Shown: positions 35,375 through 48,268, counted from the stretch's first letter. The stretch: DNA of 62,142 bases from a bacterium (GCA_026706565.1 JAPOYM010000071.1:1-62142), one strand, 5' to 3'. Numbers and translations: made by a program. Notes: generated by a model not told the origin, from the letters alone.

Positions 35375-35446
35375 ATGGCCGCCGAAGACGAGAAGCCCAG
35401 CGCGCCGGTCGACGTGGACACCATCCCCGCCGGCACGTTCCACTAG
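35375..35446 (+). CDS. 23-aa small ORF (MAAEDEKPSAPVDVDTIPAGTFH), hypothetical
   Basis: Strong SD AGAAAGGAGGG lies 6 nt before the ATG. There is no homology evidence. Confidence 0.35.
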   Translation: MAAEDEKPSAPVDVDTIPAGTFH

Positions 35447-35550: not shown

Positions 35551-36810
35551 ATGGAACCGACCCTCGAAACGTTCGGGCTCAGCCAGCCCGCCGAGCTGTT
35601 GCAGATGCCGTGGCTCGCGGCCTTGGCCGCCGCTGTGGTGATTTCCGGTTTGCTGCTGGCGCGGCACCGCTCCGGCAAGCGACTGGTGCGAGGCTCCAGC
35701 GCTTGGAGCGCTCGCCGCCGGCGCCCGAACAACAACCAACGCAAGATCCAACCCGAGGACTATGTGAAGGCCGGCGTCATCGGCATCGGCCACGACCTAG
35801 CCCATGCGGTCACCAAGGACCGGTCGGAAATCGCCGCCGGAGAGGCAAAGATCGCCGCCCTTCAGGAGCAAGAGGCCCGACACCTCCAGGAAATAGACCG
35901 CCTGACCGAACAGCGCGCATCCGACGATACGCGCTTCGACGCGGAGATCGAAGCGGTGAGGGAGAACTTCGCCGCCGAGGACAACGCCCCGGCAGCGATG
36001 ACCAAGAAGTGGAGCACACTCTGGGGCGGATTCTTCCTCCTAGGTGACGTCTTCGTCGTCTCACAGGCGATCATGGTGCAAGAAGGCACGGTCACGCCGG
36101 TGATTGCGTACGGCACAGCGATCGCCATTTCCCTCATGATGTGGTTTGCGGGCAAATGGCTGGGCTGCGAGTTGCGCCGCTTCCGGATGGCCCAGAAGGC
36201 CGCAAGAGTCATCGTCCCGGTGGTTCTCGTTCTGTTGGTCGTGTCGGGCGCGCTGTACGTGATGCGAACCGGTGACACCAGAGCTTGGATCGCGCTCGCA
36301 CTGGCGCCTCCACTGGGAACCGCCGCCACGAAGGTCCTCGGTCCGACAGCCAGCCAAGCCAAAGTCGCAACGCTGAGCCGCGCTAAGGAATCCGAACGAG
36401 CATCGACGCAGGGAAAGATCGACGCTCAGCGGTCGAAGATCGAGCAGAGCCTCAACGCCCGCGGCGAAGCCGCAGTCAACTGTGCCCAACGGCGGGAACA
36501 CATCCTGAGCCGGACCGACGCCGAGAAGCTGCGAGCCAAGGCCGTGTTCCACCAGGGCGGCTTCAACCCGCACAACCCGGACTACTGGATCACGCTCAAC
36601 CAGGCGGGATTCTCCGTCGAGGCCCCCGTGGACACATGCCCCCACGACCCCGACTACTGGGACATCCCCGCCAGCGCCGGTCTCCATGCGCGCCCGCGGG
36701 CAGTCGCCGCGCAGGGCCCGGGGGGCCCGCCGAACGGCATCCACCCCGCGGACGCGCCGCCGACGGTCGCGGCAACGAACGGCGCCCAGCCCGCAGGCAC
36801 CCCGGCCTGA
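35551..36810 (+). CDS. membrane protein with coiled-coil segments (about 5 TM), hypothetical
   Basis: SD GAAAGGA lies 7 nt before the ATG at 35551. It has an N-terminal TM, a coiled coil (AKIAALQEQEARHLQEIDRLTEQ), four clustered TM helices, a second coiled coil and a Pro-rich tail. Confidence 0.7.
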   Translation: MEPTLETFGLSQPAELLQMPWLAALAAAVVISGLLLARHRSGKRLVRGSSAWSARRRRPNNNQRKIQPEDYVKAGVIGIGHDLAHAVTKDRSEIAAGEAKIAALQEQEARHLQEIDRLTEQRASDDTRFDAEIEAVRENFAAEDNAPAAMTKKWSTLWGGFFLLGDVFVVSQAIMVQEGTVTPVIAYGTAIAISLMMWFAGKWLGCELRRFRMAQKAARVIVPVVLVLLVVSGALYVMRTGDTRAWIALALAPPLGTAATKVLGPTASQAKVATLSRAKESERASTQGKIDAQRSKIEQSLNARGEAAVNCAQRREHILSRTDAEKLRAKAVFHQGGFNPHNPDYWITLNQAGFSVEAPVDTCPHDPDYWDIPASAGLHARPRAVAAQGPGGPPNGIHPADAPPTVAATNGAQPAGTPA

Positions 36811-36858: not shown

Positions 36859-37665
36859 ATGAACAGGAGCCGACCAGAGCGCGCTCCCCTCGCTCCGAGA
36901 ATGGCCGCGGCGACGCTGGCGGCGCTCCTCGGCCTTGTGTCGCTCGCCTGCGACGCGGGCGGCTTGGCAAGCGCCGCCAAAGACACGGTCAAGGAGAACA
37001 CCGTAGGCGTCAACGACCCCGGAGTGCGCCGAACGATCATCATCGATCCGGGGCACCGCCCGGTTGACCAGATCCTCGACCAGGTTCACGCCGTGGCCGT
37101 CGACAGCGCCTCCCGCGGGCAACGCATCACGGTCCGGCTCGTCGGCGGAGGCAACGCCGACGCTTGGCGGGCCGTGGACCTGTCATCGGCGCACGGCGGA
37201 GACCTCCGGCGCGAGGCCCAGAACCCCACCCACCTTCGCAAGGAAGCCAACGCCAACGCCGAGGCCGTGACGGCCGCCGTCGCCGCGGCGCTCCGCGGAT
37301 TCGCCTACGACGGCAGCGGCGCGGACCTCTTCGGCGCCATCCGACGAGCCGCGACAGACCCGGTCCTGCCCCGAGAGGTCGTAATGGTCACCGGCGGGGG
37401 CGTTCACCAGACCGCCGCGCTCGACACCGTGAGCGGCTACGGGAACCTGCCGCGACTGCTCGACGCCATCCCAGCGATCGAAGCCCCCGAGACCGACGTC
37501 GTAATCATCGGCGCGGGCGACTTCACCGGGGCTGCGACCACCCCATCGGGAGAGTTCAGCGCCGCGGTCGCCGAACTCTGGGATCACGCCTGCGCCCGCT
37601 GGCGACTCCGCACGTGCGCGCTCGCAGACAATCCCGACTATCTCGCCACGCTCGAGAGCCGATAG
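36859..37665 (+). CDS. lipoprotein, hypothetical (possibly degenerate vWA-like alpha/beta fold)
   Basis: SD GAAAGGA; lipobox LVSLAC; alternating beta-strand-like segments (TIIIDPG, VVMVTGGG, VVIIGAGD). Confidence 0.65.
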   Translation: MNRSRPERAPLAPRMAAATLAALLGLVSLACDAGGLASAAKDTVKENTVGVNDPGVRRTIIIDPGHRPVDQILDQVHAVAVDSASRGQRITVRLVGGGNADAWRAVDLSSAHGGDLRREAQNPTHLRKEANANAEAVTAAVAAALRGFAYDGSGADLFGAIRRAATDPVLPREVVMVTGGGVHQTAALDTVSGYGNLPRLLDAIPAIEAPETDVVIIGAGDFTGAATTPSGEFSAAVAELWDHACARWRLRTCALADNPDYLATLESR

Positions 37666-37670
37666 CCCCG

Positions 37671-39284
37671 ATGGCCGCAACAAGACGCTGGAGCCGCGTC
37701 CGAGAACTCGCCCGCCGGGCCGACCGGCAGCACGAGTCCCCAGCACTCGGTCCCAGCGTCCGCCCCACCGACACGCACCTCGCCGGGGGCCACCCACGCG
37801 TCCGCGTCGTCGGTCCCAGCGACGGCCGACGGGACGCGGTGCGGATCGCCGAGCCGGCGTACACCGAAGCCATCGCGTCGCTCGGCGGTCTGCCCGCCGA
37901 AGCGGGCGGGCCCCTCGGCGGCGACCACCGCACGGGCATCGTCTCAGAGTTCTACCTCGACGAGTCCGCGCGGCGCGACGAGCACAGTTACTCCCCCGAC
38001 GTAGAGACCCTGAACCGGCTCTTCCGCACACAGTGGAACCCCCGGGGCCTATCTCTGCTCGGCTTCGCGCACTCGCACCCCCCGGGCGTGCCGGTGCCTT
38101 CGACCGGCGACCGGCGATACGCCCGAAGACTCCTCGCCGCCCTTCCCTCCCTGGACCGACTCCAGCTGCCCATCGTCGAACAGTCCCGCGTCGGCAACCA
38201 CATAGCCCGGGGTTTCGCCGTCGTCGACGACGGTTCATCGCTGCCGGCGGCGCAGCGAGTCTCCCTCGACACGGTCCCCGACTGCCCGACGCGCCGCGAG
38301 CCCGACCCCGCGACGTTCCTCCGAGCCTCGACCAGCTACGAGTTGGCGATCATGGCCAACACCCGCGTCGTGCTCGTCGGAGTCGGAGGGGCCGCCCAGC
38401 ACGCCGAGCACTTGGCGCGGTGCGGCATCGGCGAACTCGTCCTCGTCGATCCGGACCGGGTGGAGCCCCCGAACGTTGCAACCCAACAGGCCTATCTGCG
38501 GGACGCGGGGCGATCGAAGGTCGGCGCCCTCGCCGAACGCCTCACCGACATCAGCCCAATCCTGCGCGTCGCCGCGGTGCCCCACAGCGTCCAACAGCTA
38601 GATCTCCCGACACTGCGAATGCTGCTGCATCGGCCGTTGTTCCCCGGCGAGCCGATCGCTCCCAGACTCACGGTCACATGCGGATTCACCGACGACTTCT
38701 GGACGCAGGCCGAGGTCGCTCGCATCGCGTTGCAGGAAGGCACACCCCTGCTCGCGGGCCAAGTCTACGAGCAAGGATGCGGGGCGGAGATCGTCTTCGT
38801 GGCGCCGGGCCACACCGCCGCCTGTCACCGATGCGTCCTCGGCTCTCGCTACTACTCCTATCTGGCCGGGTTCCGCAACGACGTCACCAGCGCCGGCGCA
38901 CCTCTGTTCGCCACCGAGAGGCTCAACGCAACCAAAGCGATCGTGATGATGGCGATGGTCCACGGACTGCACCCCGACGCGGACCGCGGCCACCCCGCCA
39001 CCGCGAGATTCTCGACGCTGTTCGAGACCATCCGCGAGCGGAACCTCATCCAGATCCGCCTCACCCCTGACTTCGAGTCGATCCTCGGCGTCAGCGTCTT
39101 CGAGCGCACACTCACCGGCGCCGACAGCACACGCGTCGTCTGCGACGAGACCCTCTGGCACCCCCAGACACCGACTGCCCATCCCCCCTGCCCCGATTGC
39201 GGCGGCACCGGCGACCTCGCACAACTCGCCGGCACCAACATCGCCCCCCTGACGCGACCTGAGAACACGGAGAGGACACCATGA
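37671..39284 (+). CDS. JAB/JAMM metallopeptidase fused to an E1-like (ThiF/MoeB-family) adenylation domain
   Basis: The JAMM motif is intact: E(AGGPLGG)...HSHPPGVPVPSTGD, which fits HxHx7Sx2D (38070-38111). E1 Rossmann VVLVGVGGAAQH...LVLVDPDRVEPPNV. Cys pairs CHRC and CPDC. Confidence 0.8.
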   Translation: MAATRRWSRVRELARRADRQHESPALGPSVRPTDTHLAGGHPRVRVVGPSDGRRDAVRIAEPAYTEAIASLGGLPAEAGGPLGGDHRTGIVSEFYLDESARRDEHSYSPDVETLNRLFRTQWNPRGLSLLGFAHSHPPGVPVPSTGDRRYARRLLAALPSLDRLQLPIVEQSRVGNHIARGFAVVDDGSSLPAAQRVSLDTVPDCPTRREPDPATFLRASTSYELAIMANTRVVLVGVGGAAQHAEHLARCGIGELVLVDPDRVEPPNVATQQAYLRDAGRSKVGALAERLTDISPILRVAAVPHSVQQLDLPTLRMLLHRPLFPGEPIAPRLTVTCGFTDDFWTQAEVARIALQEGTPLLAGQVYEQGCGAEIVFVAPGHTAACHRCVLGSRYYSYLAGFRNDVTSAGAPLFATERLNATKAIVMMAMVHGLHPDADRGHPATARFSTLFETIRERNLIQIRLTPDFESILGVSVFERTLTGADSTRVVCDETLWHPQTPTAHPPCPDCGGTGDLAQLAGTNIAPLTRPENTERTP

Positions 39285-39619
39285 CCACCGTATTGGAGAA
39301 CATCAAGTACCGAGCCTCGAACGGTGAGGACTTCATGTTCGACTTCGAACTGCGCGACGACGGTTGGCGCGTGCACATAACCAGCCAACCCCGCTACCGC
39401 CACCGGAGCGCGAGCGCGCACGACACTCACCGCCTCGGCCGGGCTGAACGTCCCTACATCTGCTGGACCAACCCGATAAACGGACTCGACGACGCCTTCG
39501 GCGTCGCCGCCCTGTGGGCGGAAGCGACCCTCGTGTACATCGCGACCGGTCGCTTCAACGCGCCGCGCCGCTTACCGCGACTCCACGATCTCACCGGACT
39601 CACCCGGCTCAGCCGCTAG
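39281..39619 (+). CDS. small conserved-looking protein, possible E2(UBC)-like with HDTH...PYICW
   Basis: ATGA overlap with the JAB-E1 gene. 112 aa. The H-x-x-H...x-I-C-W spacing recalls HPN...C of UBC folds. The call is weak. Confidence 0.3.
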   Translation: MTTVLENIKYRASNGEDFMFDFELRDDGWRVHITSQPRYRHRSASAHDTHRLGRAERPYICWTNPINGLDDAFGVAALWAEATLVYIATGRFNAPRRLPRLHDLTGLTRLSR

Positions 39620-39652
39620 CCCCCGATCAATCCACCCCGAAAGGACGATCCC

Positions 39653-40381
39653 ATGGCCCGTCAACGCCCCACCCTGTTCCTCGAGACCAACGACTGGGAC
39701 ACTCACACCGCGCCGCGCCGATGGTTGGCCGTGATCCCCGTCATCGCGCTGGTCGTCGCCGCCGCCGCCATGTGGCAGCTCAACCGCCCCGAGCCGATCG
39801 GGGCGGCCTCGACCCTGCCGGTCTGCGACTCTGACCACCCGCACCTAACCGTTGTTGTCCTCGATGTCTCGCCGTCGGTGATCAGCGCGGACGGCGCCGA
39901 CCCCGACGGTCGCAGCTTCGACGAAGCCCGAGAGCTCGCGCGGCTGCTTGCCGCCGACCCCTGCACCCCCGACGACCGGTTCGCCGCCATCGTGTTCGGC
40001 GCAGAAGCGATTCTGCAAATGCCGCCGACACTGCTGTCGCAGAGCAGCGACATCGCCGCCGGCCTCCGCAACCAGGGCTACGCCAACCTCGGGGACTCCA
40101 CCGACATCTCAGCCTCAATCCGCACGGTGGACTCCATCGCATCCGATCATCCGCACCACGAACTCTCAGCCATCTGGCTCTCAGACATGATGGGAGACCC
40201 GTTCACCGAACAACACCTCCGAACCCTCGCCGCCGAGCACGCCTACCTCGTCGCGCTCGGTGACTACGACCCGTACTTCAACCAGTACTTCGACGCAGTC
40301 CACGAGATCGTCACGGTCAAACCCGGTGCCGTCGCACACGCACTCACCGAGAGCATCTCCCGCACCCGCGGCGCGCCCTGA
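39653..40381 (+). CDS. membrane-anchored von Willebrand factor type A (vWA) domain protein
   Basis: N-terminal TM (WLAVIPVIALVVAAAAMW). MIDAS-like VVVLDVSPSV (DxSxS at 39863-39877). Further vWA strands: AAIVFG and AIWLSD. Confidence 0.65.
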   Translation: MARQRPTLFLETNDWDTHTAPRRWLAVIPVIALVVAAAAMWQLNRPEPIGAASTLPVCDSDHPHLTVVVLDVSPSVISADGADPDGRSFDEARELARLLAADPCTPDDRFAAIVFGAEAILQMPPTLLSQSSDIAAGLRNQGYANLGDSTDISASIRTVDSIASDHPHHELSAIWLSDMMGDPFTEQHLRTLAAEHAYLVALGDYDPYFNQYFDAVHEIVTVKPGAVAHALTESISRTRGAP

Positions 40382-40434: not shown

Positions 40435-41781
40435 ATGAATTGCGCCAACATCCCGCGCCTCATCCGCAGCACCGCGATCGCGTCCGCAGTCGCCGTCATC
40501 GCGCTCGCCTGCGACCCCGATCACGCCACAACCCACGACACCAGCCCGGCCGAACGGGTCGCCGAACAGGCAGGCGAACAGGCAGCCGGCACCGTCGCGG
40601 CCGGCAGGACCGCTCTTCCCGAAGCGGTCGTGCTCCCCACCGGAATTCCCGGCATCAGCGAACTCACTCCACCAACACCGGACACCGTCGTCCCGCCACC
40701 CCCCGACCCCGCACCGGCGGCGCCCACAAGCGACCCCCCCGTCGTCCCGCCACCCCCCGACCCCGCACCGGCGGCGCCCACAAGCGACCCCCCCGTCGAC
40801 CGCCCACCGCCGACGTCCGCAACCGAACCGGATGCACCCCCGGTCGCCCCCGACCTTCCGCCATCCACGGCCGGACCGCCCGAGCCCGCGCCCCCGCCAC
40901 CGCCCGCAGACCCCGAACCCCATACCTGCGTCGCCTACCGCATAGACGACGTGCTCTTCAACAGCGCCGCCGCGGAACTCGCCCCCGGCGCCGAGGACAG
41001 CCTCGCCGCCGTCGCCGCGCTAATCGCCGACGACGCCCGAGTCTCCGTCATCGGCCACACCGACTCGCTGCCGTCAGCGATCGGCAACCAGCGACTGTCC
41101 GAACTCCGCGCCCAGACTGTCGCCGAGGCCCTGATCGGCGCGGGCCTGAACCCCGAATCGGTGACCGAGATCGCCGGCAGAGGCGAAACCGAACCCATCG
41201 CCGACAACGGCACCGACGAAGGCCGGCGCCTCAACCGGCGCGTCGAGGTATACATCAACTGCGCCGCCCGACAACACCGAAGCGCCGCGTCCGAAGCAGG
41301 CCGAGGCAGCGCCGCTGCGAACCCGACCACCCCCGCAGACCCGACGACCGACGACCCCGAGGCCGTGCCAGCGGGCCCCAGAAGCGAACCCGAGGCCGAT
41401 ATGCTAGGCATGGTCGGCGAGTTCCGAGCGGACCTCGAACTGCAGCCACTTCTGCACCATCAACAGCTAGCATCCGTCGCCCGTGCCTGGTCAGCCACAA
41501 TGGACACAACCGGACGGCTAGAGCACAATCCTGACTACACAAACCAGTATCCCACGGGTTGGCTGTCAGCTGCCGAGAACATCGCGTTCGTAACAGTACC
41601 CACAACCTCACCAGAATCGCTCGCAGAGGCAACCATGATCGCCTTCCAAGGACTTGTCAACAGCCCACCGCACTACAAGAACCTCACCAACCCGACGTTC
41701 ACCCACATAGGAATCGGCATACACCTAAGCACCGATACCCTGTGGGTAACCCAGAACTTCGCGCACTATCCACCCGAATAG
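40435..41781 (+). CDS. lipoprotein with Pro-rich linker, OmpA-family peptidoglycan-binding domain and C-terminal CAP/SCP (PR-1-like) domain
   Basis: Lipobox IALAC. OmpA_C motifs: VIGHTDSLPS..GNQRLSELRA..V and NRRVEVYI. CAP motifs: HNPDY, NIAF, SPPHYKNL, THIGIG. Confidence 0.75.
   Translation: MNCANIPRLIRSTAIASAVAVIALACDPDHATTHDTSPAERVAEQAGEQAAGTVAAGRTALPEAVVLPTGIPGISELTPPTPDTVVPPPPDPAPAAPTSDPPVVPPPPDPAPAAPTSDPPVDRPPPTSATEPDAPPVAPDLPPSTAGPPEPAPPPPPADPEPHTCVAYRIDDVLFNSAAAELAPGAEDSLAAVAALIADDARVSVIGHTDSLPSAIGNQRLSELRAQTVAEALIGAGLNPESVTEIAGRGETEPIADNGTDEGRRLNRRVEVYINCAARQHRSAASEAGRGSAAANPTTPADPTTDDPEAVPAGPRSEPEADMLGMVGEFRADLELQPLLHHQQLASVARAWSATMDTTGRLEHNPDYTNQYPTGWLSAAENIAFVTVPTTSPESLAEATMIAFQGLVNSPPHYKNLTNPTFTHIGIGIHLSTDTLWVTQNFAHYPPE
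40687..40794. repeat. perfect 54-bp tandem duplication (18-aa VVPPPPDPAPAAPTSDPP x2) inside the linker
   Basis: 40687-40740 is the same as 40741-40794 by eye. Confidence 0.85.
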
Positions 41782-41786
41782 CCACC

Positions 41787-44700
41787 ATGTCACCCAGCGC
41801 CTCGTCGCGGCTCGACCAGCACCACCTCGCATCGCTGCACAAACTCACCGACGAGCACCTAATCAAGCTCCTCAATGAGATCCTTCCGCTGAAATGCGCT
41901 CACGGCTCCGTCGAAGCGGAACGCCTGGAATGGCATGACCCATGCTGGGAGACACGCCCCGCCTTGAAGCGCGTGCGACGATTGTCCCTAGAACTCTCCG
42001 TCAACAACCCCAACGGGCGTAGCCGTAGCAGGGTCACCCTGCCGTTTCTCTGGCCATTGGGCGAGGAGGCTTGCGCCGAACCGTACCCGCTAGAATATGT
42101 GCGCCTCGGCGGCCCTGCGACGTTCATCGACGCGCTACCGAAGGTGGCGGTAAGCCAAAGAACGTACCGTCCCGGGTTGCACTTGTTTCGTCACGATTTC
42201 CGCTACTCGGGTCGTCAATATTCGGGCCGACGACTAGTTCTTATGCCGGACATCGGCCCGAGCATACGAATCTACAAAACAAGCATCGGACGAGATCAGA
42301 CAAGCAGTGAATTCGACCCAGCTCCAGACGACCACGCGCCTCCACTCGCCAAGTCGCCCCCAAGGTCGTCGTTCCGAGTGTCGATCTATGGGCTAGGAAG
42401 CGGGACAGCTGTCTTTGAGAATGCCGAACTCATTGGTTGCGCCGATTCCGGCCAGACTCGCGCGCCTCACGGGACGCCCCATACCGCTAACCTAGGGGCC
42501 CTCTGTGATCGTCTCCTAGGACAGAATCGACCCCCCTTGGCATTTTTCTCGGACGCGACAAGGGAGCGGATCTCCGAAGCGGGAATACGACTCGACGATT
42601 CCAGCTTACAGGACCTATGCGGCCTCTTGTTCAGCTTGGATAAGGATGGAGCTGAACCTCCGGAGTATGGACATGAACTCTCCGAAGCGACTCTCCGGAC
42701 GCAGCACCACGGCGACATACTGGAGTCGATTCTTGTGGAATCGCTGCTAGCGGCTGTGGAGCGATTCCATCTCGGCAAGCCCGATCAGGCCGCGGCGCTC
42801 GGCTCTCTACTGAAGTCCATGTTCCAGCAGATTTACAACCGGATGCATCGCGGCGGAGACCGCCAGCCTGCACTGCTGGTGACCGACGACGACCGTAACA
42901 CGCTCGCCAACCTCGAGGCCCGGCGAAAGACGACTCGATACAGTCCCGAGATTCCCCGAGAGATTCGGTACTGGCTCTGGACCCGTGACATCGACCCAAG
43001 CGACCGTCGCCGTCTCTGCCCGCTCCAAACTCCCGAGTCAGCCGACCTTGGATACGTGCGATTCTTGGCCCTCGGAGATGGATATGCCGACGAGCACTCA
43101 GGGATCGCCGATCTTGACGCGCCCGACTTGGACCTTGACTCGAGCGACTTGAGCGCCGCCGCCTCGCTCATTCCGTTCATCAATCACAACGACCCGACGC
43201 GCTCGGCCATCGGCTCAAAGAACCTGAAGCAGGCGCTGCCACTCGCAGGGGCGAGCGCGCCGCGAATCCGGTCGGGCACCGAAGCGGCCCTCGCCGAAGC
43301 ACACGGCACGGCCCGTCTGCCCGCAGGGCCCGACGCGACTGTTCTAGAGGTATTCGAGGACCGGATCATCGTGCAGCGCCAGGAAGGCGCCCCGCGTGGG
43401 GCGGAAGTCCTACCGTTCGGCTACCCGCACCCCACCGGCCACACCGCCGACGGGCGCTGGAAACTGCTCACGACACCCGGCGACACCCTCAGCGCAGGAA
43501 CCGTGTTCGCGCACGCCCCCGACGTCGTCATCGACTGCGGCGAACCCACTCTCGCTCTCGGCACCGACGTGCTCGTGGCGTTCACGCCCTGGTTGGGGAT
43601 GAACTACGAGGACGCCATCGTCGCCAGTGAGGCTGTCGTCGACCGGATGGCTTCGTTGCATTCTCTTCGCATCACCGAGCCGCTCGGCGCCTATGAGACT
43701 CTGCGGCCGTCGGTCGAGGCGGGTGCCGAGGTCGTCGCCGGCGACGAACTGCTGAAGATCCTCGGCCCCGACTCGAAGACGCGTCGCTCCGTCGTCGCCC
43801 CCGAGTCCGGAGTCCTTGAGGAGGGCCCGCGCGTCGAACCGGTCATCGGCCCTCGTGAGAGCGGTGACAGTGACGACGCGGTCTCGGGCGAGATCGTCAT
43901 CCGGCTCAGGACCAGCAGGCGTCTCGCGGTCGGGGACAAGCTAACCAACCGCCATGGCGGCAAGGGGGTGGTTTCTGCGATCCTGCCCCCATCGAGCATG
44001 CCGAAACTCCCCGACGGACGCCACGTTGAGATGATTCTCAACCCGCTCGGAGTGATCCGGCGTTTGAACATCGGCCAACTGTTTGAGACCCATGAGAGCC
44101 TGCTCGCCGACCTCGAGGAGGGCGGACCCCGCATCGTCGGCCGCCGGATGAGCCCGCAGCGTCGGGGCGAACTCGCCTCCGCCCTGGCCGAGCGTGGCGC
44201 CCCGGGCGGGCGGCTGGTGCTGGAATGCGCCGACGGCACCGTGCTGGACCGCCACGGCGGCGTTGTCGCGGGTTGGCAGTACATGCTGAAACTGGACCAC
44301 CTGGTGGCGGACAAGCGCAACGAGCGTCTCGCGGCGTTCGCCGGGCCGCGCGACCGGCAGCCCGTCCGCGGCTCGACGTTCGCCGGCGGCGTCCGGCGGG
44401 GAGGCGCCAAACGTTGCGGCGAAATGGAGATCTGGGCCCTTCGGGCCAAGGGCGCATCAGAGTTCTTGGATGAGACCCTCACTGCACGCAGCGGTTTCGC
44501 CCCCGGCACGAATCCCACCCTCGCCAGCGTCGACGCCCACCTGAGAACTGCCCAACTCGCTGTTGACCACACCACCGGGGCGGTCAAGCTACTGGACGCA
44601 CGAGACACCAAGGCCCTGGCGCCCGTCATCTGCGAGGAGATCACCGAACCTACGACGAACACTCCCCAGTACGCCTCCGCCGCCAGCCACGGCCTCTACC

Positions 44701-47222
44701 GCCCCGATTGCCACGGTGACTTCGAGAAGGCCGGAGCATCTTGTGCCTGCGGTTCCGTGTGGCAATCCGGCGCCAGATGCGCGTCCTGCCACACGACGCC
44801 CCGACCCGACCCACACCCGGAGCGCTTGGCGGTGCGATACCACATCAAGTTGCCGGCACCGGTGAAGCATCCGTGGTTCCGGCCGTCGCCGAGTCAAGGC
44901 GCAAGCTCTTGCGTAGCCTCGCGCATTCATCGCGAACACCGCCGGGCTGCCGAGCTCGAGCACCTGTGCTGTGCGAATCATGATCCGGACGTCGTTCGGC
45001 ACCGTGACGAGAACGGTCGATCCTCCGCGCTCGAACGCGTTCGGGAATCGCTCGCCGAAGAGGGTCACCAACCGATTGCGATGACCCACGACTGTCGTCG
45101 CGCGCGATTGTACGTGTTCACCGACCGTGGCCGACTCGCGGAGTTCGACCTTGCCGAAGGCGCGGCGGGGGACTTCGTGCGGGATTGGTTCATCGAGCAC
45201 CGACGCGCCGGGAATCCCGAATTGCCCCCGGATGATGTCCAGTTCCTTGCGCTCGAACCCAACGGATTCCCGGTCATCAACTACGGCAAGGACGACCAGA
45301 GCAGGGATATTCTCCGGACCGCCACTCCGGCGTTGCACGTCGTTCCGATACTGCCCCCGGCCTATCGCAGGTTCGGGTACGAACCCCTTGACACCCTCTA
45401 CGAGCGACTCATCCGTCTAGTCGCTCTGGTGGAAGAGAACCGAGAGGCGGCAGTGATGGGGGTGGAACGGCAACTTGTTCGGGCCATCCTCGGCGGACCG
45501 ACCGACAAGCCGGATCACGGCACCATTTCCGGTCGGCTGAACGGCAAGCACGGCCTGATTCGCCGTGGACTGAGAGGACGGCACAACAACTCTGTCGCCC
45601 GAAACGTCATCACGCCCCAGACAACGCTCGGCCTCGAGGAGGTCGGGCTGCCGTCTGGCACCATGGCGGAGCTCCAACTCCGCGACGGGGACGTCGTTGT
45701 CGTCAATCGCCAGCCCACCCTACGCCCATCGAACGTCGTGGCGCTACGCGCCAGGGCCCACGACGGTGACCACGTCGCACTTCACCCAATGATGTCGAAG
45801 CAGTTGGCCGGCGACTTCGACGGCGACGAAGTCACGTTGCACTGCCCCAGCGACGGACAGGTGGCGGTCGACACCTGGAGGCGTCTCAGACCTACGAGCG
45901 AACTCCTCAACGACACCGATGGTCAGCCCACCATGGCGCCCGACCTCGACGTCGCCCTCGGAGTCCACCTTCTCTCGATGTCGGATGCCGGTCGCGTCGA
46001 ACTCTCGAAGCTCCTGGACGGTGGCGAGCAGCCGGCCGGCAACGGGTCAGCCGGAGTCGAGTCCGCTGTCGGCGCGGACCAAGCCGTCGAACTGGTCCGG
46101 GCCGCCTACAGTGCCCTCGCAATCGATCCAGAACGCGACCCTTGCGCGGTCATCGAGGCGCTCTTCGAGGCGACGACCCGCGCCTGCCTGGGTTGGTCCG
46201 CTTCGCTGCTCGACGACGCGTTCCTGGAAGACGGCGCGCGGCTGAGGATGCTGGAACGTACCGGCAACGACGAACTGGACGGTCCTCGGTCCGACTGGCT
46301 CGACGAGGCGATCGCAGCAGGCGTCGCGGGAGGGGCAGGCGGTCTGCGCCAACTATTCGTCGAACGCGGCAGCCTCCCGACCTTCACACCCGGCAAGTCG
46401 ACGCCGCGAGTCGGGTCGTGCTTCCTCGACGGCCTCTCGTCCGGCGACGTCTTCGCGACAGCTCCCGGGGCGCTGGCCGCGCTGGTCCAGAAGAAGCTCG
46501 TGACGCCTCAGGCAGGACACGTCACAAAACGGCTGGCAGACGCGCTGTACGACTTTGTCGTGGCAGCGGAGGATTGCGGCGTCGGGCCCGATGCCACAGG
46601 ACACCGCGACGCTCTTCATTGCGCCCTCGACGGATCTTGCTGCGCGGCGTGCGTCGGCCCGCTCCCCTCGGGCAGGAGCGCAGATGTCGGGGATTTCATC
46701 GGGCTGCGAGCCGCGATGCTGATCGGCGAACGCTGCACCCAGAAAGCCATGAAGACCTTCCACGGAGGCGGCACCAGCGACGACGTCCGCGGCATTGTGC
46801 CCGAACTCGAGGCAGCGTTCGGCTTTCGCGCCAACCACCCGCAGGAGTCAGGGCTCTCGTTCAGGGACGCATTGAAGGCCGACGATCCTCCAGCGACGCT
46901 ACGCCGTCTCGCCGGACAGACCGCCGCGGCCCTCGATGGCGGCGTGCATGAATCCTTGATCTGCATAGCTCTGAGGCGGGTACACGACCTCGCCCGACAA
47001 GCCGAAGCGGAGGCCGCTGTCGGTCCGCTCCCTCGGGTGCCCGCAGGACCGAACAACCAAGCCGCCAGAGCGAATCCACTCCTGCACGCATCCACCATTG
47101 GGCACCTTCGACCCATCCTGGATTCCGTCGAATGGCCGGTACGCCACGGCCCTTCCGGCCAGCAGTTGCGCGATGCCTACTGGCCCGTCGCCCGTCCTGC
47201 CCGACCCGAAGCCAGGCGGTGA
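41787..47222 (+). CDS. single-chain RNA polymerase: fused, shortened beta (RpoB-like) + beta-prime (RpoC-like) homologue, 1811 aa
   Basis: Beta motifs occur in canonical order: KVAVSQRTYRPGL (cf ERVIVSQLHRSPGV), CPLQTPESADLGYV (cf CPIETPEG.NIGLI), SLIPFINHNDPTRSAIGSKNLKQALPL, NYEDAIV, GDKLTNRHGGKGVV (43932-43973), LNPLGVIRRLNIGQLFETH, YMLKLDHLVADK and CGEMEIWAL. Beta-prime motifs follow: Zn ribbon CHG..CACG..CASC, HIKLPAPVKHPWF, VPILPPAYRRF, NGKHGLIRRGLRGRHNNSVARNVI, NRQPTLRPS, AGDFDGDEV (DFDGD at 45813-45827), a bridge-helix-like GHVTKRLADALYDFVVAAEDCG, and a trigger-loop-like LIGERCTQKAMKTFHGGG. Confidence 0.85.
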   Translation: MSPSASSRLDQHHLASLHKLTDEHLIKLLNEILPLKCAHGSVEAERLEWHDPCWETRPALKRVRRLSLELSVNNPNGRSRSRVTLPFLWPLGEEACAEPYPLEYVRLGGPATFIDALPKVAVSQRTYRPGLHLFRHDFRYSGRQYSGRRLVLMPDIGPSIRIYKTSIGRDQTSSEFDPAPDDHAPPLAKSPPRSSFRVSIYGLGSGTAVFENAELIGCADSGQTRAPHGTPHTANLGALCDRLLGQNRPPLAFFSDATRERISEAGIRLDDSSLQDLCGLLFSLDKDGAEPPEYGHELSEATLRTQHHGDILESILVESLLAAVERFHLGKPDQAAALGSLLKSMFQQIYNRMHRGGDRQPALLVTDDDRNTLANLEARRKTTRYSPEIPREIRYWLWTRDIDPSDRRRLCPLQTPESADLGYVRFLALGDGYADEHSGIADLDAPDLDLDSSDLSAAASLIPFINHNDPTRSAIGSKNLKQALPLAGASAPRIRSGTEAALAEAHGTARLPAGPDATVLEVFEDRIIVQRQEGAPRGAEVLPFGYPHPTGHTADGRWKLLTTPGDTLSAGTVFAHAPDVVIDCGEPTLALGTDVLVAFTPWLGMNYEDAIVASEAVVDRMASLHSLRITEPLGAYETLRPSVEAGAEVVAGDELLKILGPDSKTRRSVVAPESGVLEEGPRVEPVIGPRESGDSDDAVSGEIVIRLRTSRRLAVGDKLTNRHGGKGVVSAILPPSSMPKLPDGRHVEMILNPLGVIRRLNIGQLFETHESLLADLEEGGPRIVGRRMSPQRRGELASALAERGAPGGRLVLECADGTVLDRHGGVVAGWQYMLKLDHLVADKRNERLAAFAGPRDRQPVRGSTFAGGVRRGGAKRCGEMEIWALRAKGASEFLDETLTARSGFAPGTNPTLASVDAHLRTAQLAVDHTTGAVKLLDARDTKALAPVICEEITEPTTNTPQYASAASHGLYRPDCHGDFEKAGASCACGSVWQSGARCASCHTTPRPDPHPERLAVRYHIKLPAPVKHPWFRPSPSQGASSCVASRIHREHRRAAELEHLCCANHDPDVVRHRDENGRSSALERVRESLAEEGHQPIAMTHDCRRARLYVFTDRGRLAEFDLAEGAAGDFVRDWFIEHRRAGNPELPPDDVQFLALEPNGFPVINYGKDDQSRDILRTATPALHVVPILPPAYRRFGYEPLDTLYERLIRLVALVEENREAAVMGVERQLVRAILGGPTDKPDHGTISGRLNGKHGLIRRGLRGRHNNSVARNVITPQTTLGLEEVGLPSGTMAELQLRDGDVVVVNRQPTLRPSNVVALRARAHDGDHVALHPMMSKQLAGDFDGDEVTLHCPSDGQVAVDTWRRLRPTSELLNDTDGQPTMAPDLDVALGVHLLSMSDAGRVELSKLLDGGEQPAGNGSAGVESAVGADQAVELVRAAYSALAIDPERDPCAVIEALFEATTRACLGWSASLLDDAFLEDGARLRMLERTGNDELDGPRSDWLDEAIAAGVAGGAGGLRQLFVERGSLPTFTPGKSTPRVGSCFLDGLSSGDVFATAPGALAALVQKKLVTPQAGHVTKRLADALYDFVVAAEDCGVGPDATGHRDALHCALDGSCCAACVGPLPSGRSADVGDFIGLRAAMLIGERCTQKAMKTFHGGGTSDDVRGIVPELEAAFGFRANHPQESGLSFRDALKADDPPATLRRLAGQTAAALDGGVHESLICIALRRVHDLARQAEAEAAVGPLPRVPAGPNNQAARANPLLHASTIGHLRPILDSVEWPVRHGPSGQQLRDAYWPVARPARPEARR

Positions 47223-48268
47223 CTGAATTGATCACCTCCGGAGTGCGAGCGGGGCGCGACCGGCGACGCAGCGCAAAGCCAGACACCGATGCTCTCACAC
47301 AACCGAACGCTCGCCGCCTAGCTCGAGTCCTGGTATCCACTATTGCTTCACCGACTGCACACGAGATCCAGCACCTCGATAGCGACGAACCGCTTGATGA
47401 CGATCCCTTGGATATGGTGCCCGACGGCTGGGAGGACGAAGAGCCGGATGCTCCGACGGCCTTCGACGAGGCGTCGCCGACGGCCTCGGGCCGCACTGCC
47501 CCACCCACAGCGGTTCTTGAGTTCTTCGTCCGCCCGGGGCCGCTGTCGGATGTCGCCGTCGAGGTGAACGCTCCGCTGCCCCAAGAGCATCACCTCGGAG
47601 TGGCTGGGCTTCCGCTGGTTCAAGCCGAATGGTTGGAACGACGTCGACACCTTGAGGCCGTCGGCGTCTGCATCCTGAACCGTCAACTACCCGCCATTCA
47701 GTCGACCGACCCGCGTCATGCCTACAGATCCTTGCGCCCGATGACCAACGCTGATTTGAACGAATCCGCTGGCACACGCGGCTCGGGCTGGGCTTCCCGC
47801 AATCGGACGGCTCCGGTCGCCTGCCCCTGGGGCCTCGTTCGACTGGAGTTCTTCACTTGGGGGATCGGTCCCGGACGCGTCGCCGTGTACGAAGCGCTGC
47901 TCAACGCTGTGTTGATTGACGGCGCTGCCGGTGGAGACACCGCCATCGCCCGCGACGCGCGCGACCAAGCCATAGCGGCTCTCGAAACATCGTCCGACTC
48001 TGCTCTGAGGCAGTCGACGCTCTCAGAGCAGGCACGCACGCAGCTCCCAGCTCTCGACAGCGTCCGTAAGTTGGTTTCCGTCGCTCGTTCGCTGGGAGCA
48101 CCTCAGACCTCCGCCTACATCGCGACCCTTCGACGCGACTCATTGTTCTGGAGCGACGACCTAATCGGAGCTAACGCCATGCTCGCCTCATCGCTTAGCG
48201 ACAGAGGCCTCCAGTTGGCAAGGTTCGCCGTGGCTGGATGGGAGGGGGGCAAGCAGTGGATGCCTTGA
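47219..48268 (+). CDS. sigma-54 (RpoN)-like protein, divergent and shortened (349 aa)
   Basis: GTG at 47219 overlaps the polymerase stop (GTGA). There is an acidic N-terminal segment. LERRRHLEAVGVCILNRQ, LRPMTNADLNE and SRNRTAPVACPWGLVRLEFF align by eye with E. coli RpoN LEARNDTLLRVSRCIVEQQ, MKPMVLADIAQ and [22 protein letters not shown]. Confidence 0.7.
   Translation: MTELITSGVRAGRDRRRSAKPDTDALTQPNARRLARVLVSTIASPTAHEIQHLDSDEPLDDDPLDMVPDGWEDEEPDAPTAFDEASPTASGRTAPPTAVLEFFVRPGPLSDVAVEVNAPLPQEHHLGVAGLPLVQAEWLERRRHLEAVGVCILNRQLPAIQSTDPRHAYRSLRPMTNADLNESAGTRGSGWASRNRTAPVACPWGLVRLEFFTWGIGPGRVAVYEALLNAVLIDGAAGGDTAIARDARDQAIAALETSSDSALRQSTLSEQARTQLPALDSVRKLVSVARSLGAPQTSAYIATLRRDSLFWSDDLIGANAMLASSLSDRGLQLARFAVAGWEGGKQWMP

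What the first reader, a model, noticed from the sequence alone, without database searches (positions are those of the whole stretch)
37671..39619. JAB(JAMM)-E1 fusion with a translationally coupled small Cys protein and no recognisable ubiquitin-like partner
The N-terminal domain has a complete JAMM signature: E...H-S-H-x7-S-x2-D, as HSHPPGVPVPSTGD. The C-terminal domain has the E1/ThiF nucleotide-binding loop (GVGGAAQ...VDPDRVEPPNV) and two CxxC pairs. The next gene overlaps it by ATGA. Its HDTHRLGRAERPYICW segment is reminiscent of the HPN...C active-site region of E2/UBC folds. Prokaryotic E1/E2/JAB sets are known from comparative genomics and from CBASS and Bil-type defence. Association with a private RNAP/sigma54 module and vWA/OmpA proteins is not something I recognise.
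Basis: partly seen in the sequence, partly recalled or inferred. Interest (0 to 1): 0.7.

Follow-up and report, generated by a model that had tools for sequence, protein, structure and literature searches.

The report
Peptide-activating JAB–E1 cassette without ubiquitin
The JAB–E1 fusion is real and intact. Its small partner is not an E2-fold protein but a new His/Cys protein, and the "missing" ubiquitin-like partner may be a tiny conserved gene for a peptide ending in …IPAGTFH, which together form an apparently undescribed four-gene cassette found across bacterial phyla.

Summary
Gene 37671-39284 encodes an N-terminal JAB/JAMM peptidase fused to a ThiF/E1 adenylation domain. It overlaps a 112-aa gene (39281-39619) by ATGA.

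A high-confidence model of the small protein (pLDDT 92.5) matches no UBC, ubiquitin or any other solved fold. HMM and profile comparisons with E2 families are also negative.

The small protein belongs to a large unnamed family (720 representatives). In that family His50 and Cys61 are essentially invariant. Its gene sits beside a JAB–E1 gene in 46 of 63 loci from at least six phyla.

Comparing those loci exposed two further partners. One is a ClpB/ClpV-like AAA+ ATPase. The other is a micro-ORF encoding 1-10 tandem copies of G-G-D-E-I-P-x-G-T-F-H, which often stops right after the His. The window carries a single-copy version (35375-35446, MAAEDEKPSAPVDVDTIPAGTFH) at the head of the operon.

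The E1 domain has no conserved catalytic cysteine, as in BubCD.

My best reading, which is inferred and not shown: JAB trims the peptide, E1 adenylates its C-terminal His, and the small protein's Cys61 or an E1 hydroxyl carries it. I call this a new variant of bacterial ubiquitin-like machinery. All evidence is computational.

The parts
35375..35446 (+). Micro-ORF for the precursor peptide MAAEDEKPSAPVDVDTIPAGTFH, with the stop codon directly after His. This is a single-copy version of the repeat unit G-G-D-E-I-P-x-G-T-F-H.
   Evidence: - The Shine-Dalgarno sequence AAAGGAGG lies 6 nt upstream of the ATG.
- The back-translated core occurs once in the window and in 0 of 100 shuffles.
- The same motif is found in short same-strand ORFs next to the cassette in 41 of 53 loci, with no hits anywhere else in 1.41 million six-frame codons.
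- All synonymous codons are used.
35551..36810 (+). Membrane protein of 419 aa, an accessory gene of the RNAP-type islands.
   Evidence: ATG preceded by GAAAGGA. No Pfam family. Homologues are present in L001, L006 and L019.
36859..37665 (+). 268-aa protein of unknown family, an accessory gene.
   Evidence: No Pfam, NCBIfam, PADLOC or PHROGs hit. Homologues in L001, L006 and L019, E 1e-69 to 2e-72.
37671..39284 (+). JAB/JAMM peptidase fused to an E1 (ThiF-type) adenylation domain, 537 aa.
   Evidence: Pfam Prok-JAB plus ThiF. Invariant catalytic residues. PDB profile hits to UBA5, MoeB, TcdA, ThiF and MccB; BubCD aligns across the JAB-E1 junction.
37890..38135 (+). JAB/JAMM domain (residues 74-155) with E77, H134, H136, S144 and D147.
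38313..39284 (+). E1 adenylation domain and its C-terminal part.
- Nucleotide-site residues: R218, G237-x-G239-G240, D260, D262, N268, T271 (where the canonical Arg would be), Q272, K283, D341.
- Zn site: C385, C388, C507, C510.
- Crossover segment: invariant R393, Y394 and T415 and near-invariant S407 (S/T), with no conserved Cys.
39281..39619 (+). Small His/Cys protein of 112 aa. It has a new alpha/beta fold: three-stranded meander, short helix, beta-hairpin, long helix. H50 and C61 lie at the base of the hairpin.
   Evidence: - ATGA overlap with the JAB-E1 gene.
- Family of 720 representatives.
- Model with pLDDT 92.5.
- No structural or HMM relative.
- H50 in 70/70 and C61 in 69/70 cassette-linked copies.
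39653..40381 (+). vWA-domain protein of 242 aa, an accessory gene.
   Evidence: Pfam VWA_2, E 6.8e-7. Homologues in L001, L006 and L019.
40435..41781 (+). OmpA-like peptidoglycan-binding domain plus CAP/SCP domain, 448 aa, an accessory gene.
   Evidence: Pfam OmpA 8e-17 and CAP 1.3e-13.
41787..47222 (+). Fused RNA polymerase beta-beta' protein of 1811 aa that keeps the DFDGD motif. It accompanies the cassette in about a quarter of loci.
   Evidence: - Pfam Rpb2_6, Rpb2_7, Rpb1_2 and Rpb1_5.
- Start codon read.
- The DFDGD motif is visible in the translation.
- Homologues in 11 distinct fetched loci besides the window: L001, L006, L007, L008 (L027 is a near-identical copy), L009, L011, L014, L019, L021, L025, L031 and L037.
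47132..48268 (+). 378-aa protein of unknown family. The start is uncertain: ATG 47132 or TTG 47228.
   Evidence: No family hit. Homologue in L006. Sequence read.
48238..49833 (+). AAA+ ATPase of the sigma54-activator (bEBP/RtcR-like) type, 531 aa. In this island type it occupies the place of the ClpB-like AAA+.
   Evidence: Pfam Sigma54_activat 8.6e-28. NCBIfam RtcR and NorR-like hits. Homologues in L006, L007, L021 and L025.
50523..53099 (-). HD-CE domain protein of 858 aa in a low-GC stretch. It is a recurrent neighbour of the cassette and may not be part of it.
   Evidence: Pfam HD-CE 9e-9. Related large proteins lie next to the cassette in L011, L019, L030 and L040. GC is 0.54 here.

Best explanation
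The JAB-E1 gene and the small gene are two parts of a conserved four-part cassette:
1. a ribosomal micropeptide with one or more copies of G-G-D-E-I-P-x-G-T-F-H;
2. a small His50/Cys61 protein with a new fold;
3. the JAB-E1 fusion;
4. an AAA+ ATPase. In most loci this is ClpB/ClpV-NBD2-like. In this window a sigma54-activator-like AAA+ next to a private fused RNA polymerase takes its place.

**Proposed mechanism**
- The JAB domain cuts multi-copy or C-terminally extended precursors so that each peptide ends in His. This resembles a deubiquitinase cutting polyubiquitin. The window's peptide already ends in His.
- The E1 domain adenylates that C-terminal carboxylate.
- The E1 has no conserved catalytic Cys. 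The activated peptide is therefore passed either to Cys61 of the small protein (with His50 as its neighbour) or via an E1 crossover-loop hydroxyl (Y394, S407 or T415), as in Bub systems.
- From there it goes to an amine on a target.
- The AAA+ then acts on the tagged protein or on the machinery.

The small protein would then do an E2-like job without being an E2.

**Shown:** gene content, gene linkage, conservation of active-site residues, absence of a UBC fold, and selection on the peptide at the protein level.

**Inferred:** that the peptide is the JAB/E1 substrate, the cleavage site, thioester formation on Cys61, the nature of the targets, and a role in conflict between hosts and mobile elements.
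For: **Gene linkage**
- Of 63 non-duplicate loci with the small gene, 46 have a JAB-E1 gene within 3 kb. Most are within about 120 nt or overlapping. In 41 the order is small gene then JAB-E1.
- In 13 loci the contig was too short on one side of the small gene to score. Only 4 lack JAB-E1 with room on both sides.
- The loci come from Actinobacteria, Victivallales, Rickettsiales, Acidobacteria, Myxococcales and Planctomycetes.
- A ClpB-like AAA+ lies directly downstream of JAB-E1 in most loci. It has intact Walker motifs, and its best family hits are ClpV and ClpB.

**The peptide gene**
- All 133 motif hits in 1.41 million codons lie in 53 short ORFs on the cassette strand.
- It is present in 41 of 53 loci with enough sequence. 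Copy number is 1-10, and 20 of 47 ORFs stop right after His.
- Between loci there are 2303 synonymous versus 1053 non-synonymous codon differences.
- In the window it has a strong Shine-Dalgarno sequence and the motif is unique.
- Peptide and small genes are duplicated together as pairs in L012 and L036.

**Active sites**
- The JAMM and adenylation residues are invariant in 24 homologues and invariant or nearly so in 35 more.
- Only the four Zn-binding Cys are conserved in the E1. Y394, R393 and T415 are invariant and S407 nearly so (S/T).
- The only near-invariant non-Zn Cys in the cassette is C61 of the small protein. It sits across a predicted hairpin from the invariant H50.

**Precedent**
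- Citrobacter BubCD is a JAB-E1 fusion without a catalytic Cys. It cleaves its substrate precursor and works through a crossover-loop Tyr (PMC11601596).
- BubCD is the only PDB protein that aligns across the JAB-E1 junction of this family.
Against: - There is no experimental data of any kind.
- All known Ubl-activating E1s take a C-terminal Gly. A C-terminal His substrate is unprecedented for them.
- One canonical ATP-contacting Arg is Thr in the whole family. Adenylation activity is therefore assumed, not certain.
- The small protein could be an adaptor or an acceptor rather than a carrier. A few family members outside the cassette sample lack Cys or His.
- In the window the peptide gene lies 2.2 kb upstream of JAB-E1, not next to it, and the ClpB-like AAA+ is absent.
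- 12 of 53 loci show no peptide ORF within the DNA fetched.
Confidence: 0.45

Rival explanations
1. RiPP or peptide-derived metabolite pathway. The micropeptide is a multi-core precursor. The E1-like domain works as MccB or PaaA does, activating the peptide for cyclisation, nucleotide attachment or another modification. JAB acts as leader or spacer peptidase. The small His/Cys protein is a tailoring enzyme or a peptide-recognition element. The end product is a small bioactive molecule, not a protein tag.
For: - Tandem core repeats behind a short leader are typical of multi-core RiPP precursors.
- MccB and PaaA are among the PDB relatives of the E1 domain, with E 9e-14 and 9e-12.
- The strictly conserved C-terminal residue recalls the obligatory C-terminal Asn of MccA (own knowledge).
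- No protein-sized modifier is present.
Against: - No transporter, immunity gene or further tailoring enzyme is conserved with the cassette.
- A Clp-type unfoldase is an odd partner for a metabolite pathway.
- The E1 is no closer to MccB or PaaA than to UBA5, MoeB or ThiF.
- The leaders are very short and lack secretion signals.
- The N-terminal domain is a JAB, not the peptide clamp of MccB.
Confidence: 0.2
2. The small protein is not a carrier. It is either the peptide-presenting adaptor for the E1 (a clamp supplied in trans) or the acceptor/regulated target of peptide ligation. The conserved His/Cys pair would then serve binding or regulation, not thioester chemistry.
For: - Peptide and small genes lie next to each other and are duplicated together.
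- The family includes tandem-repeat and membrane-anchored forms, and some repeats have lost H/C.
- The E1 has its own invariant Tyr, Ser and Thr residues that could carry the intermediate, as in BubCD.
Against: H50 (70/70) and C61 (69/70) are as conserved as the structural core residues. That fits catalysis better than simple binding. No other invariant non-Zn Cys exists in the cassette.
Confidence: 0.15
3. Sulfur-carrier-type chemistry. The E1 adenylates the peptide C-terminus and a persulfide on Cys61 of the small protein turns it into a thiocarboxylate. JAB trims the C-terminal extension, as the JAMM protease QbsD does for the carrier QbsE (own knowledge).
For: - The sequence neighbours of the E1 include ThiF, MoeB, MoeZ and Uba4.
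- JAB plus E1 plus a small carrier is the layout of the CysO/Mec+ and PDTC-type operons (PMC1779556).
- Short C-terminal extensions follow the conserved end of the peptide.
Against: - No rhodanese domain, cysteine desulfurase, cysteine synthase or cofactor-biosynthesis gene is linked.
- The neighbourhood consists of mobile-element and defence-type genes.
- The carrier is not a beta-grasp protein and does not end in Gly-Gly.
Confidence: 0.07
4. One reading: a classical E1/E2/JAB ubiquitin-like system. The 112-aa protein would be a minimal UBC-fold E2, and the beta-grasp modifier would be encoded elsewhere in the genome.
For: - The His-to-Cys spacing (11 residues) is close to that of HPN...C.
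- The Cys sits on the link between the last strand and a helix packed on the sheet, which is where it sits in UBC topology.
- JAB-E1 fusions are known from type 6e/Bub operons.
Against: - The high-confidence model has no UBC, RWD, BubB or Cap2 match; the best TM-score is 0.30.
- No E2 HMM hit in 50 family members.
- hhalign probability 0.46%.
- No beta-grasp gene is conserved in 60 or so loci, whereas a micropeptide gene is.
Confidence: 0.05

Closest known systems
Type I Bub operons (formerly '6E.1' or type 6e): BubCD (JAB-E1 fusion), BubAB (Ubl-E2 fusion) and BubE (DUF6527 protease). Sources: PMC11601596; Iyer et al. 2006, PMC1779556.
   Same: - An N-terminal JAB/JAMM peptidase is fused to a UBA5/MoeB-like E1.
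- The crossover loop has no catalytic Cys but an invariant Tyr.
- In Bub the JAB processes the substrate precursor.
- BubCD is the only solved protein that aligns across the JAB-E1 junction of this family (E 1.3e-7).
   Different: - There is no beta-grasp Ubl, no UBC-fold E2 and no DUF6527 protein.
- The partners here are an 11-residue repeat peptide ending in His, a new-fold His/Cys protein and an AAA+ ATPase.
- By sequence the E1 is nearer to UBA5 and MoeB than to BubCD.
- Whether Y394 matches BubCD Y370 could not be checked.
Type II CBASS Cap2 (E2-E1 fusion) and Cap3 (JAB), with the related 6A-MBL system.
   Same: An E1 adenylates the C-terminus of something that is not a Ubl, and a JAB peptidase counteracts or processes it. 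These systems occur in defence or mobile contexts. PADLOC and NCBIfam models for these systems match the nucleotide-binding part of the E1 at 1e-12 to 1e-14.
   Different: Here there is no fused E2 domain, no CD-NTase or MBL effector, and the JAB is fused N-terminally. The matches cover only about 90 residues of the Rossmann fold and fall far below the family cut-offs.
Microcin C7 MccA/MccB and pantocin PaaP/PaaA: E1-like enzymes that act on short ribosomal peptides.
   Same: An E1-superfamily enzyme is paired with a very short ribosomal peptide that has a strictly conserved C-terminal residue. MccB and PaaA are detectable relatives.
   Different: - The C-terminal residue is His, not Asn.
- The core is tandemly repeated.
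- A JAB domain replaces the peptide clamp.
- No export or immunity genes are present.
- A Clp-like AAA+ and the His/Cys protein are present.
Pupylation (Pup, PafA, Dop, Mpa/ARC). This is a functional analogy only, from my own knowledge.
   Same: A short disordered ribosomal tag, an enzyme that prepares its C-terminus, an ATP-dependent ligation step, and a dedicated AAA+ unfoldase.
   Different: The enzymes are unrelated: Pup uses glutamine-synthetase-like PafA and Dop, not E1 and JAB. No proteasome genes are linked. Nothing here has been shown experimentally.
Polyubiquitin precursor genes. This is an analogy, from my own knowledge.
   Same: Head-to-tail repeats of the unit to be activated, with a short variable cap after the last unit that a peptidase must remove. 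Here the caps are G, GG, M, S, C, SQA, GGIL or a Zn-ribbon-like tail.
   Different: The unit is 10-11 residues with no fold, and it ends in His rather than Gly-Gly.

Membership tests
JAB/JAMM metallopeptidase | The E...HxH...S...D zinc and catalytic motif. | tested here: met
   E77, H134, H136, S144 and D147 are invariant in 24 homologues; in 35 more only S144 varies, to Thr in one sequence. Pfam Prok-JAB E 1.3e-7, above its cut-off.
E1 / ThiF-MoeB adenylation domain | Gly-rich nucleotide loop, ribose-binding Asp, phosphate-binding Lys and Mg-binding Asp. | tested here: met
   G239, G240, K283 and D341 are invariant; G237 is Ala and D260 is Glu in 3 of 35 locus sequences. Pfam ThiF E 5.7e-19. 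Residue correspondence read from the UBA5 alignment.
E1 / ThiF-MoeB adenylation domain | The Arg of the N-x-x-R-Q motif that contacts ATP. | tested here: not met
   The position is Thr271 in 24/24 and 35/35 sequences. It aligns with the Arg of UBA5's N-M-N-R segment. The effect on activity is unknown.
E1 / ThiF-MoeB adenylation domain | Structural Zn site formed by two CxxC pairs. | tested here: met
   C388, C507 and C510 are invariant in both sets; C385 is invariant in the 24 and present in 34 of the 35 (one gap).
Canonical Ubl-activating E1 (thioester-forming) | Conserved catalytic Cys in the crossover loop or a Cys domain. | tested here: not met
   Outside the Zn site, no Cys column reaches 90%. 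The exception is C337 at 83%, which lies in a core strand.
UBC/E2 fold (including Prok-E2, RWD, BubB and the Cap2 E2 domain) | Sequence-profile membership. | tested here: not met
   - No UQ_con or Prok-E2 hit in 50 family members at E<=0.01.
- None in NCBIfam, PADLOC or PHROGs.
- hhalign against three canonical E2s gives probability 0.46%.
UBC/E2 fold (including Prok-E2, RWD, BubB and the Cap2 E2 domain) | The three-dimensional fold: N-terminal helix, four-strand meander, Cys loop, then helices 2 to 4. | tested here: not met
   The model (pLDDT 92.5) has no N-terminal helix, five strands and one long helix. Foldseek against the PDB finds nothing at E<=0.001; the best TM-score is 0.30.
UBC/E2 fold (including Prok-E2, RWD, BubB and the Cap2 E2 domain) | Catalytic Cys with the HPN motif upstream. 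| tested here: inconclusive
   A near-invariant Cys61 lies 11 residues after the invariant His50. The motif is T-H-R-L, not H-P-N. This is compatible with an analogous role but does not show homology.
Ubiquitin-like beta-grasp modifier | A 70-100-aa beta-grasp protein with a C-terminal Gly(-Gly), encoded in the operon. | tested here: not met
   - The window operon has no gap large enough for such a gene.
- No conserved extra small gene other than the micropeptide appears in about 50 loci.
- No ThiS, ubiquitin or Multiubiquitin family appears among the 25 most frequent of the 73 Pfam families hit by 102 neighbouring proteins. Only those 25 are listed.
- The small His/Cys protein does not match ubiquitin folds.
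Type I Bub system | BubCD-type JAB-E1 fusion. | tested here: met
   Same domain order, and a collinear alignment to 9ea4 across the junction, E 1.3e-7.
Type I Bub system | BubAB Ubl-E2 fusion and BubE (DUF6527/PF20137) protease. | tested here: not met
   Neither is detected among the window's operon proteins or the cassette neighbours.
Type II CBASS | CD-NTase plus an effector, with a Cap2 E1-E2 fusion and Cap3. | tested here: not met
   PADLOC gives only partial E1 and JAB domain matches. There is no CD-NTase or effector model hit.
Microcin C-like (MccA/MccB) | Short peptide ending in Asn; MccB with an N-terminal peptide clamp. | tested here: not met
   The peptide ends in His, and the N-terminal domain is a JAB. 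Only the adenylation domain is shared.
Peptide substrate of this E1 (the functional claim) | Adenylation of the peptide's C-terminus by the E1, and cleavage by the JAB. | not testable with these tools
   This needs biochemistry or complex modelling.

The most novel reading that the evidence does not exclude
This would be a third kind of bacterial protein-tagging pathway, alongside pupylation and the ubiquitin-like Bil/Bub/CBASS systems. The tag would be an 11-residue ribosomal peptide (GGDEIPxGTFH), encoded as a polyubiquitin-like tandem array. A JAB domain would cut it out and an E1 domain would activate it at a C-terminal histidine. A non-UBC His/Cys protein would carry it as a thioester, and a dedicated Clp-like AAA+ unfoldase would read the tagged proteins. 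Mobile elements or defence islands would deploy the system, sometimes together with their own RNA polymerase.
Probability: 0.25. Interest if true: 0.92.

Novelty: new variant of a known kind. Interest (0 to 1): 0.8.

Why it matters
Every bacterial E1/JAB conjugation system characterised so far (CBASS Cap2/Cap3, Bil, Bub) activates either a folded beta-grasp protein or the tail of a folded enzyme.

If this cassette really activates an 11-residue repeat peptide ending in His, three things follow:
- E1 chemistry would extend to a new class of substrate.
- A new protein fold would be doing the E2's job.
- The result would be a compact, genetically encoded peptide-ligation module that might be engineered.

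The findings also give a concrete, testable function to a family of at least 720 sequence clusters that has no name in Pfam, NCBIfam, PADLOC or PHROGs. In addition, they connect this chemistry to an unusual class of islands that carry their own fused beta-beta' RNA polymerase.

Tried and rejected
**E2 hypothesis — rejected**
- Sequence search of the PDB.
- Pfam, NCBIfam, PADLOC and PHROGs.
- Two structure models with Foldseek against the PDB and the viral library.
- hhalign against canonical E2s.
- All were negative.

**Search for a beta-grasp Ubl**
- I looked for ORFs with good coding signal that end in G or GG around the operon. Nothing credible turned up, and the operon has no free space.

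**Search of other collections for the cassette**
- No tblastn match for JAB-E1 in PLSDB plasmids or GenBank phages at E<=1e-10.
- No small-protein relative and no peptide-repeat match in IMG/VR viral contigs.

**Literature**
- Searches for JAB/E1/RNAP/AAA+ combinations, for 'PGTFH', for RiPP plus ThiF plus JAB, and for fused RNA polymerases found no description of this cassette.
- The 'HD-CE' search returned only unrelated papers.
- The library does not hold most subscription-journal papers, so a prior description cannot be excluded.

**Alternative readings of the micro-ORF — considered and rejected**
- A DNA repeat or regulatory element. The amino-acid sequence is held constant while all synonymous codons are used.
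- A PPG stalling leader. Position -4 is Ala as often as Pro.

**C-terminus of the small protein as the E1 substrate**
- I considered its C-terminal ...TGxxF, or the tails ending ...RLLERIG.
- No single terminal feature is shared across the family.
- F92 looks like a core residue.

**Technical failure**
I used a tighter 24-sequence alignment instead.


Full report
**1. The observation**

The window is a high-GC contig (GC 0.62-0.75 outside one low-GC stretch). NCBI labels the metagenome-assembled genome (MAG) it comes from only as 'bacterium'.

The gene starts at ATG 37671, six bases after the stop of the preceding gene. It ends with TGA at 39282-39284, which overlaps the ATG at 39281 of a 112-codon gene. 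That gene is preceded by GAGAGGA.

Pfam finds Prok-JAB at residues 74-155 (E 1.3e-7) and ThiF at residues 229-391 (E 5.7e-19). Both scores are above the curated cut-offs.

- The JAMM residues are E77, H134-S-H136, S144 and D147. They are invariant in 24 homologues, and in 35 further sequences recovered from related loci, apart from one S144T.
- The Gly-rich loop (G237/G239/G240), D260, D262, N268, Q272, K283, D341 and the four Cys of the two CxxC pairs (C385, C388, C507, C510) are invariant or nearly so in the same two sets.

**2. The E1 domain**

- Its nearest solved relatives are UBA5 (E 3e-18 with a family profile), MoeB, TcdA, ThiF, MccB and PaaA.
- Citrobacter BubCD (9ea4) scores less well (E 1.3e-7). 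It is nevertheless the only solved protein that aligns across the JAB-E1 junction, so it has the same architecture.
- The Arg of the canonical N-x-x-R-Q motif is Thr271 in every family member.
- Apart from the Zn ligands, no Cys is conserved. The E1 therefore has no catalytic cysteine.
- The segment after the first CxxC pair holds invariant R393, Y394 and T415 and near-invariant S407 (S/T).
- The Bub paper reports that BubCD also lacks a crossover-loop Cys and uses an invariant Tyr to form an oxyester. It also reports that the BubCD JAB domain cleaves the BubAB precursor (PMC11601596).
- I could not check whether Y394 corresponds to BubCD Y370.

**3. The 112-aa protein is not an E2**

It has no hit in Pfam, NCBIfam, PADLOC, PHROGs or PDB sequences.

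A word-indexed search found only 9 relatives. An exhaustive profile search found 720 cluster representatives at E<=1e-3, of which 365 are at E<=1e-10. The family is therefore large and unnamed.

The family motif is YRT.DG.DY.F.F...WR.YI..QP.YG.R....THRL.D..R.YVCW..P...A..VAALWAD.TQ.YI.TG..F. Some members have N- or C-terminal membrane segments or tandem copies of the domain.

- With a 10-sequence alignment the model was mediocre (pLDDT 71).
- With 103 sequences it reached pLDDT 92.5 and pTM 0.87. The fold is strands 3-11, 17-25 and 28-35, a short helix at 46-49, a hairpin at 51-54/57-60, and a helix at 69-89.
- Foldseek found nothing at E<=0.001 in the PDB, with a best TM-score of 0.30. No UBC, RWD, Cap2, BubB or ubiquitin structure appeared. 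The viral structure library also gave nothing.
- None of 50 family members hits an E2 family in Pfam.

What remains is a functional resemblance. In 70 cassette-linked copies, His50 is present in 70 and Cys61 in 69. The two residues flank a tight predicted hairpin, so their side chains should lie next to each other. That proximity is my inference from the secondary structure.

**4. Gene linkage**

I fetched loci using the small protein alone. The search returned 12 loci from GTDB genomes (Propionibacteriaceae, Acidimicrobiaceae, Bifidobacteriaceae, Micropruina, Victivallales, Rickettsiales, Acidobacteria, Myxococcales, Planctomycetaceae) and 47 from metagenomes.

- Together with the loci fetched through JAB-E1 homologues, 63 non-duplicate loci carry the small gene.
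- 46 of them have a JAB-E1 gene within 3 kb, usually within about 120 nt or overlapping.
- 13 could not be scored because the contig is too short on one side of the small gene.
- Only 4 lack JAB-E1 with room on both sides.
- The usual order is small gene then JAB-E1 (41 loci). The window's order, JAB-E1 then small gene, occurs in 4 fetched loci (L001, L002, L006, L019).
- Directly downstream of JAB-E1 in most loci lies an AAA+ protein of about 435 aa. Its best family hits are ClpV, ClpB and ClpA second nucleotide-binding domains (Pfam AAA_2). Its Walker motifs are intact.
- In the window, L006, L021 and L025, a sigma54-activator-like AAA+ is found next to the polymerase instead.

**5. The missing partner**

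I clustered all unassigned ORFs around JAB-E1 across the loci. The largest cluster (24 loci) consisted of short ORFs just upstream of the small gene.

- They encode a short leader followed by tandem copies of G-G-D-E-I-P-[A/P]-G-T-F-H.
- The pattern P.G[TSM]F[HC] occurs 133 times in the 1.41 million six-frame codons of the window and all loci. Every occurrence lies in one of 53 short ORFs on the cassette strand.
- After removing duplicates, 41 of 53 loci with enough sequence have such an ORF.
- Of 47 ORFs, 17 hold one copy and 30 hold 2-10 copies.
- 20 ORFs stop immediately after the His. The rest carry short caps (G, GG, M, S, C, QG, SQA, GGIL and others) or, in Actinobacteria, a 22-28-residue tail with a CPxC...H.C pattern.
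- All four Pro codons, all four Gly codons and both Phe and His codons are used. Between loci there are 2303 synonymous and 1053 non-synonymous codon differences. Selection therefore acts on the peptide, not on the DNA.

The window has a single-copy version at 35375-35446: MAAEDEKPSAPVDVDTIPAGTFH followed by a stop.

- AAAGGAGG lies six bases before its ATG.
- It sits in the gap ahead of the first long gene of the operon.
- Its back-translated core is unique in the window and absent from 100 shuffles.
- The syntenic relative L006 has MSLVTDEKPNDEIPAGTFHAY... at the same place. That assembly's own gene caller annotated a 35-codon gene there.

**6. How it most likely works**

*Shown:* four components travel together, namely the peptide, the His/Cys protein, JAB-E1 and an AAA+. 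Both enzymatic sites of JAB-E1 look competent. The E1 has no catalytic Cys. The only near-invariant non-Zn Cys in the set is C61 of the small protein. The peptide's conserved end is His, often the literal C-terminus.

*Inferred:*
- JAB releases His-terminated units from arrays or capped precursors, much as deubiquitinases cut polyubiquitin.
- E1 adenylates the His carboxylate. Thr271 in place of Arg may reflect the bulkier terminal residue.
- The acyl group moves to Cys61, or to an E1 hydroxyl as in Bub, and then to an amine.
- The Clp-like AAA+ acts on the product.

Rivals are a RiPP-type metabolite pathway, an adaptor or acceptor role for the small protein, sulfur-carrier chemistry, and the original E2 reading. 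They are listed with their evidence in the report sections. I put the core claim (the peptide is the JAB/E1 substrate and the small protein is its non-UBC partner) at about 0.45.

**7. Context**

In the window the cassette is embedded in a co-directional operon of about 14.5 kb (35375-49833). The other genes are:
- a membrane protein;
- a 268-aa unknown protein;
- a vWA protein;
- an OmpA+CAP protein;
- a fused beta-beta' RNA polymerase (1811 aa, DFDGD motif retained);
- a 378-aa unknown protein;
- a bEBP-like AAA+.

L001, L006 and L019 share these genes in shuffled order. L006 lies at the same chromosomal site, with the same left-flank genes: hydantoinase, AAA_14/DUF4143, SGL and DHDPS.

The fused polymerase accompanies the cassette in 11 distinct fetched loci besides the window, including a Victivallales genome.

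Elsewhere the cassette sits among relaxase, resolvase, ArdC, FtsK, ParA and TrwB/HerA-like genes and defence-type domains (TIR, CHAT, HEPN, HD-CE).

It was not found in PLSDB plasmids, GenBank phages or IMG/VR.

**8. Comparison with what is known, and novelty**

- The enzymatic core is of a known kind: bacterial JAB/E1 systems, closest in architecture to BubCD of Type I Bub, which corresponds to type 6e of Iyer et al. 2006.
- The defining partners of Bub (a Ubl-E2 fusion and DUF6527), of CBASS (CD-NTase and an E1-E2 fusion) and of microcin C (C-terminal Asn and a peptide clamp) were each tested and are absent.
- I found no description of the peptide, of the small-protein family or of the cassette in the four protein-family libraries or in the searchable literature. 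That library is incomplete.

I therefore rate it a new variant of a known kind, with high interest. Every functional statement beyond gene content and residue conservation still needs experiment.

Noticed in passing
window 41787-47222 (+); also L001, L006, L007, L008, L009, L011, L019, L021, L025, L031, L037: A single polypeptide fuses RNA polymerase beta and beta' modules (Rpb2_6, Rpb2_7, Rpb1_2, Rpb1_5) and keeps the DFDGD motif. It is flanked by an AAA+ ATPase and recurs with the cassette in Actinobacteria and a Victivallales MAG. In effect it is a private polymerase of unknown promoter specificity. I found no paper describing this type.
   Followed up: partly
window 50523-53099 (-), GC about 0.54; also L011, L019, L030, L040 and the 969-aa gene at the end of L006: A large HD-CE-domain protein recurs next to the cassette or island. 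In the window it lies in a markedly lower-GC stretch (50-52 kb) than the rest of the contig. It may be an effector or a separately acquired gene.
   Followed up: partly
window 31029-32306 (-) and 55291-56553 (-): Two AAA_14/DUF4143 ATPase genes bracket the region that holds the island, and an AAA_35/STAND-like gene lies at 53590-55188. This may mark a variable defence or mobile hotspot.
   Followed up: no
L004 13638-15914, L010 5058-7484, L011, L025, L030, L040, L052, L063, L064: A 500-870-aa protein with TrwB_AAD_bind / DUF8128 / HerA-like features recurs next to the cassette in 9 loci. It may be a fifth, optional component, or a sign of carriage on conjugative elements.
   Followed up: partly
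Peptide ORFs in L010, L011, L014, L030, L032, L037, L038, L040: Actinobacterial precursors carry a C-terminal tail after the last ...GTFH unit, with a pattern such as G-M-V-Q-C-P-K-C-K-H-W-F-...-H-x-C or K-H-C-T-N-C-G-G-...-C-P-M-C. It looks like a small zinc-ribbon 'cap'.
   Followed up: no
First repeat unit of many peptide ORFs (for example L009, L013, L030, L032, L038, L045, L050): The first, more degenerate repeat often ends in ...GTFC or ...GSFC instead of ...GTFH (10 of 115 units). The reason is unknown.
   Followed up: no
N-terminal domain of the ClpB-like AAA+ (for example L004 11458-12780, residues about 25-40): The AAA+ N-domain carries a conserved [M/L]-P-P-G-x-x-P segment that loosely resembles the peptide core I-P-x-G-T-F. 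This may be chance or a pseudo-substrate.
   Followed up: no
L020 1124-3708 (-): The same contig also carries a classical E1-N/ThiF gene with a Y4jH-like metal-binding protein and two small genes, an Iyer type 6c/6e-like (Bub-type) ubiquitin-like operon. It lies about 7 kb from the peptide cassette, so the two systems can coexist.
   Followed up: no
L014 681-6347 (-): The fused RNA polymerase next to the Micropruina cassette is split over many frames. It is either a pseudogene or an assembly with indel errors.
   Followed up: no
window 40435-41781 (+), N-terminal third: The OmpA/CAP protein has a Pro/Thr/Ala-rich linker containing a near-perfect duplicated segment (...VVPPPPDPAPAAPTSDPPV... 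twice). This contributes to the strong negative GC skew at 38-42 kb.
   Followed up: no
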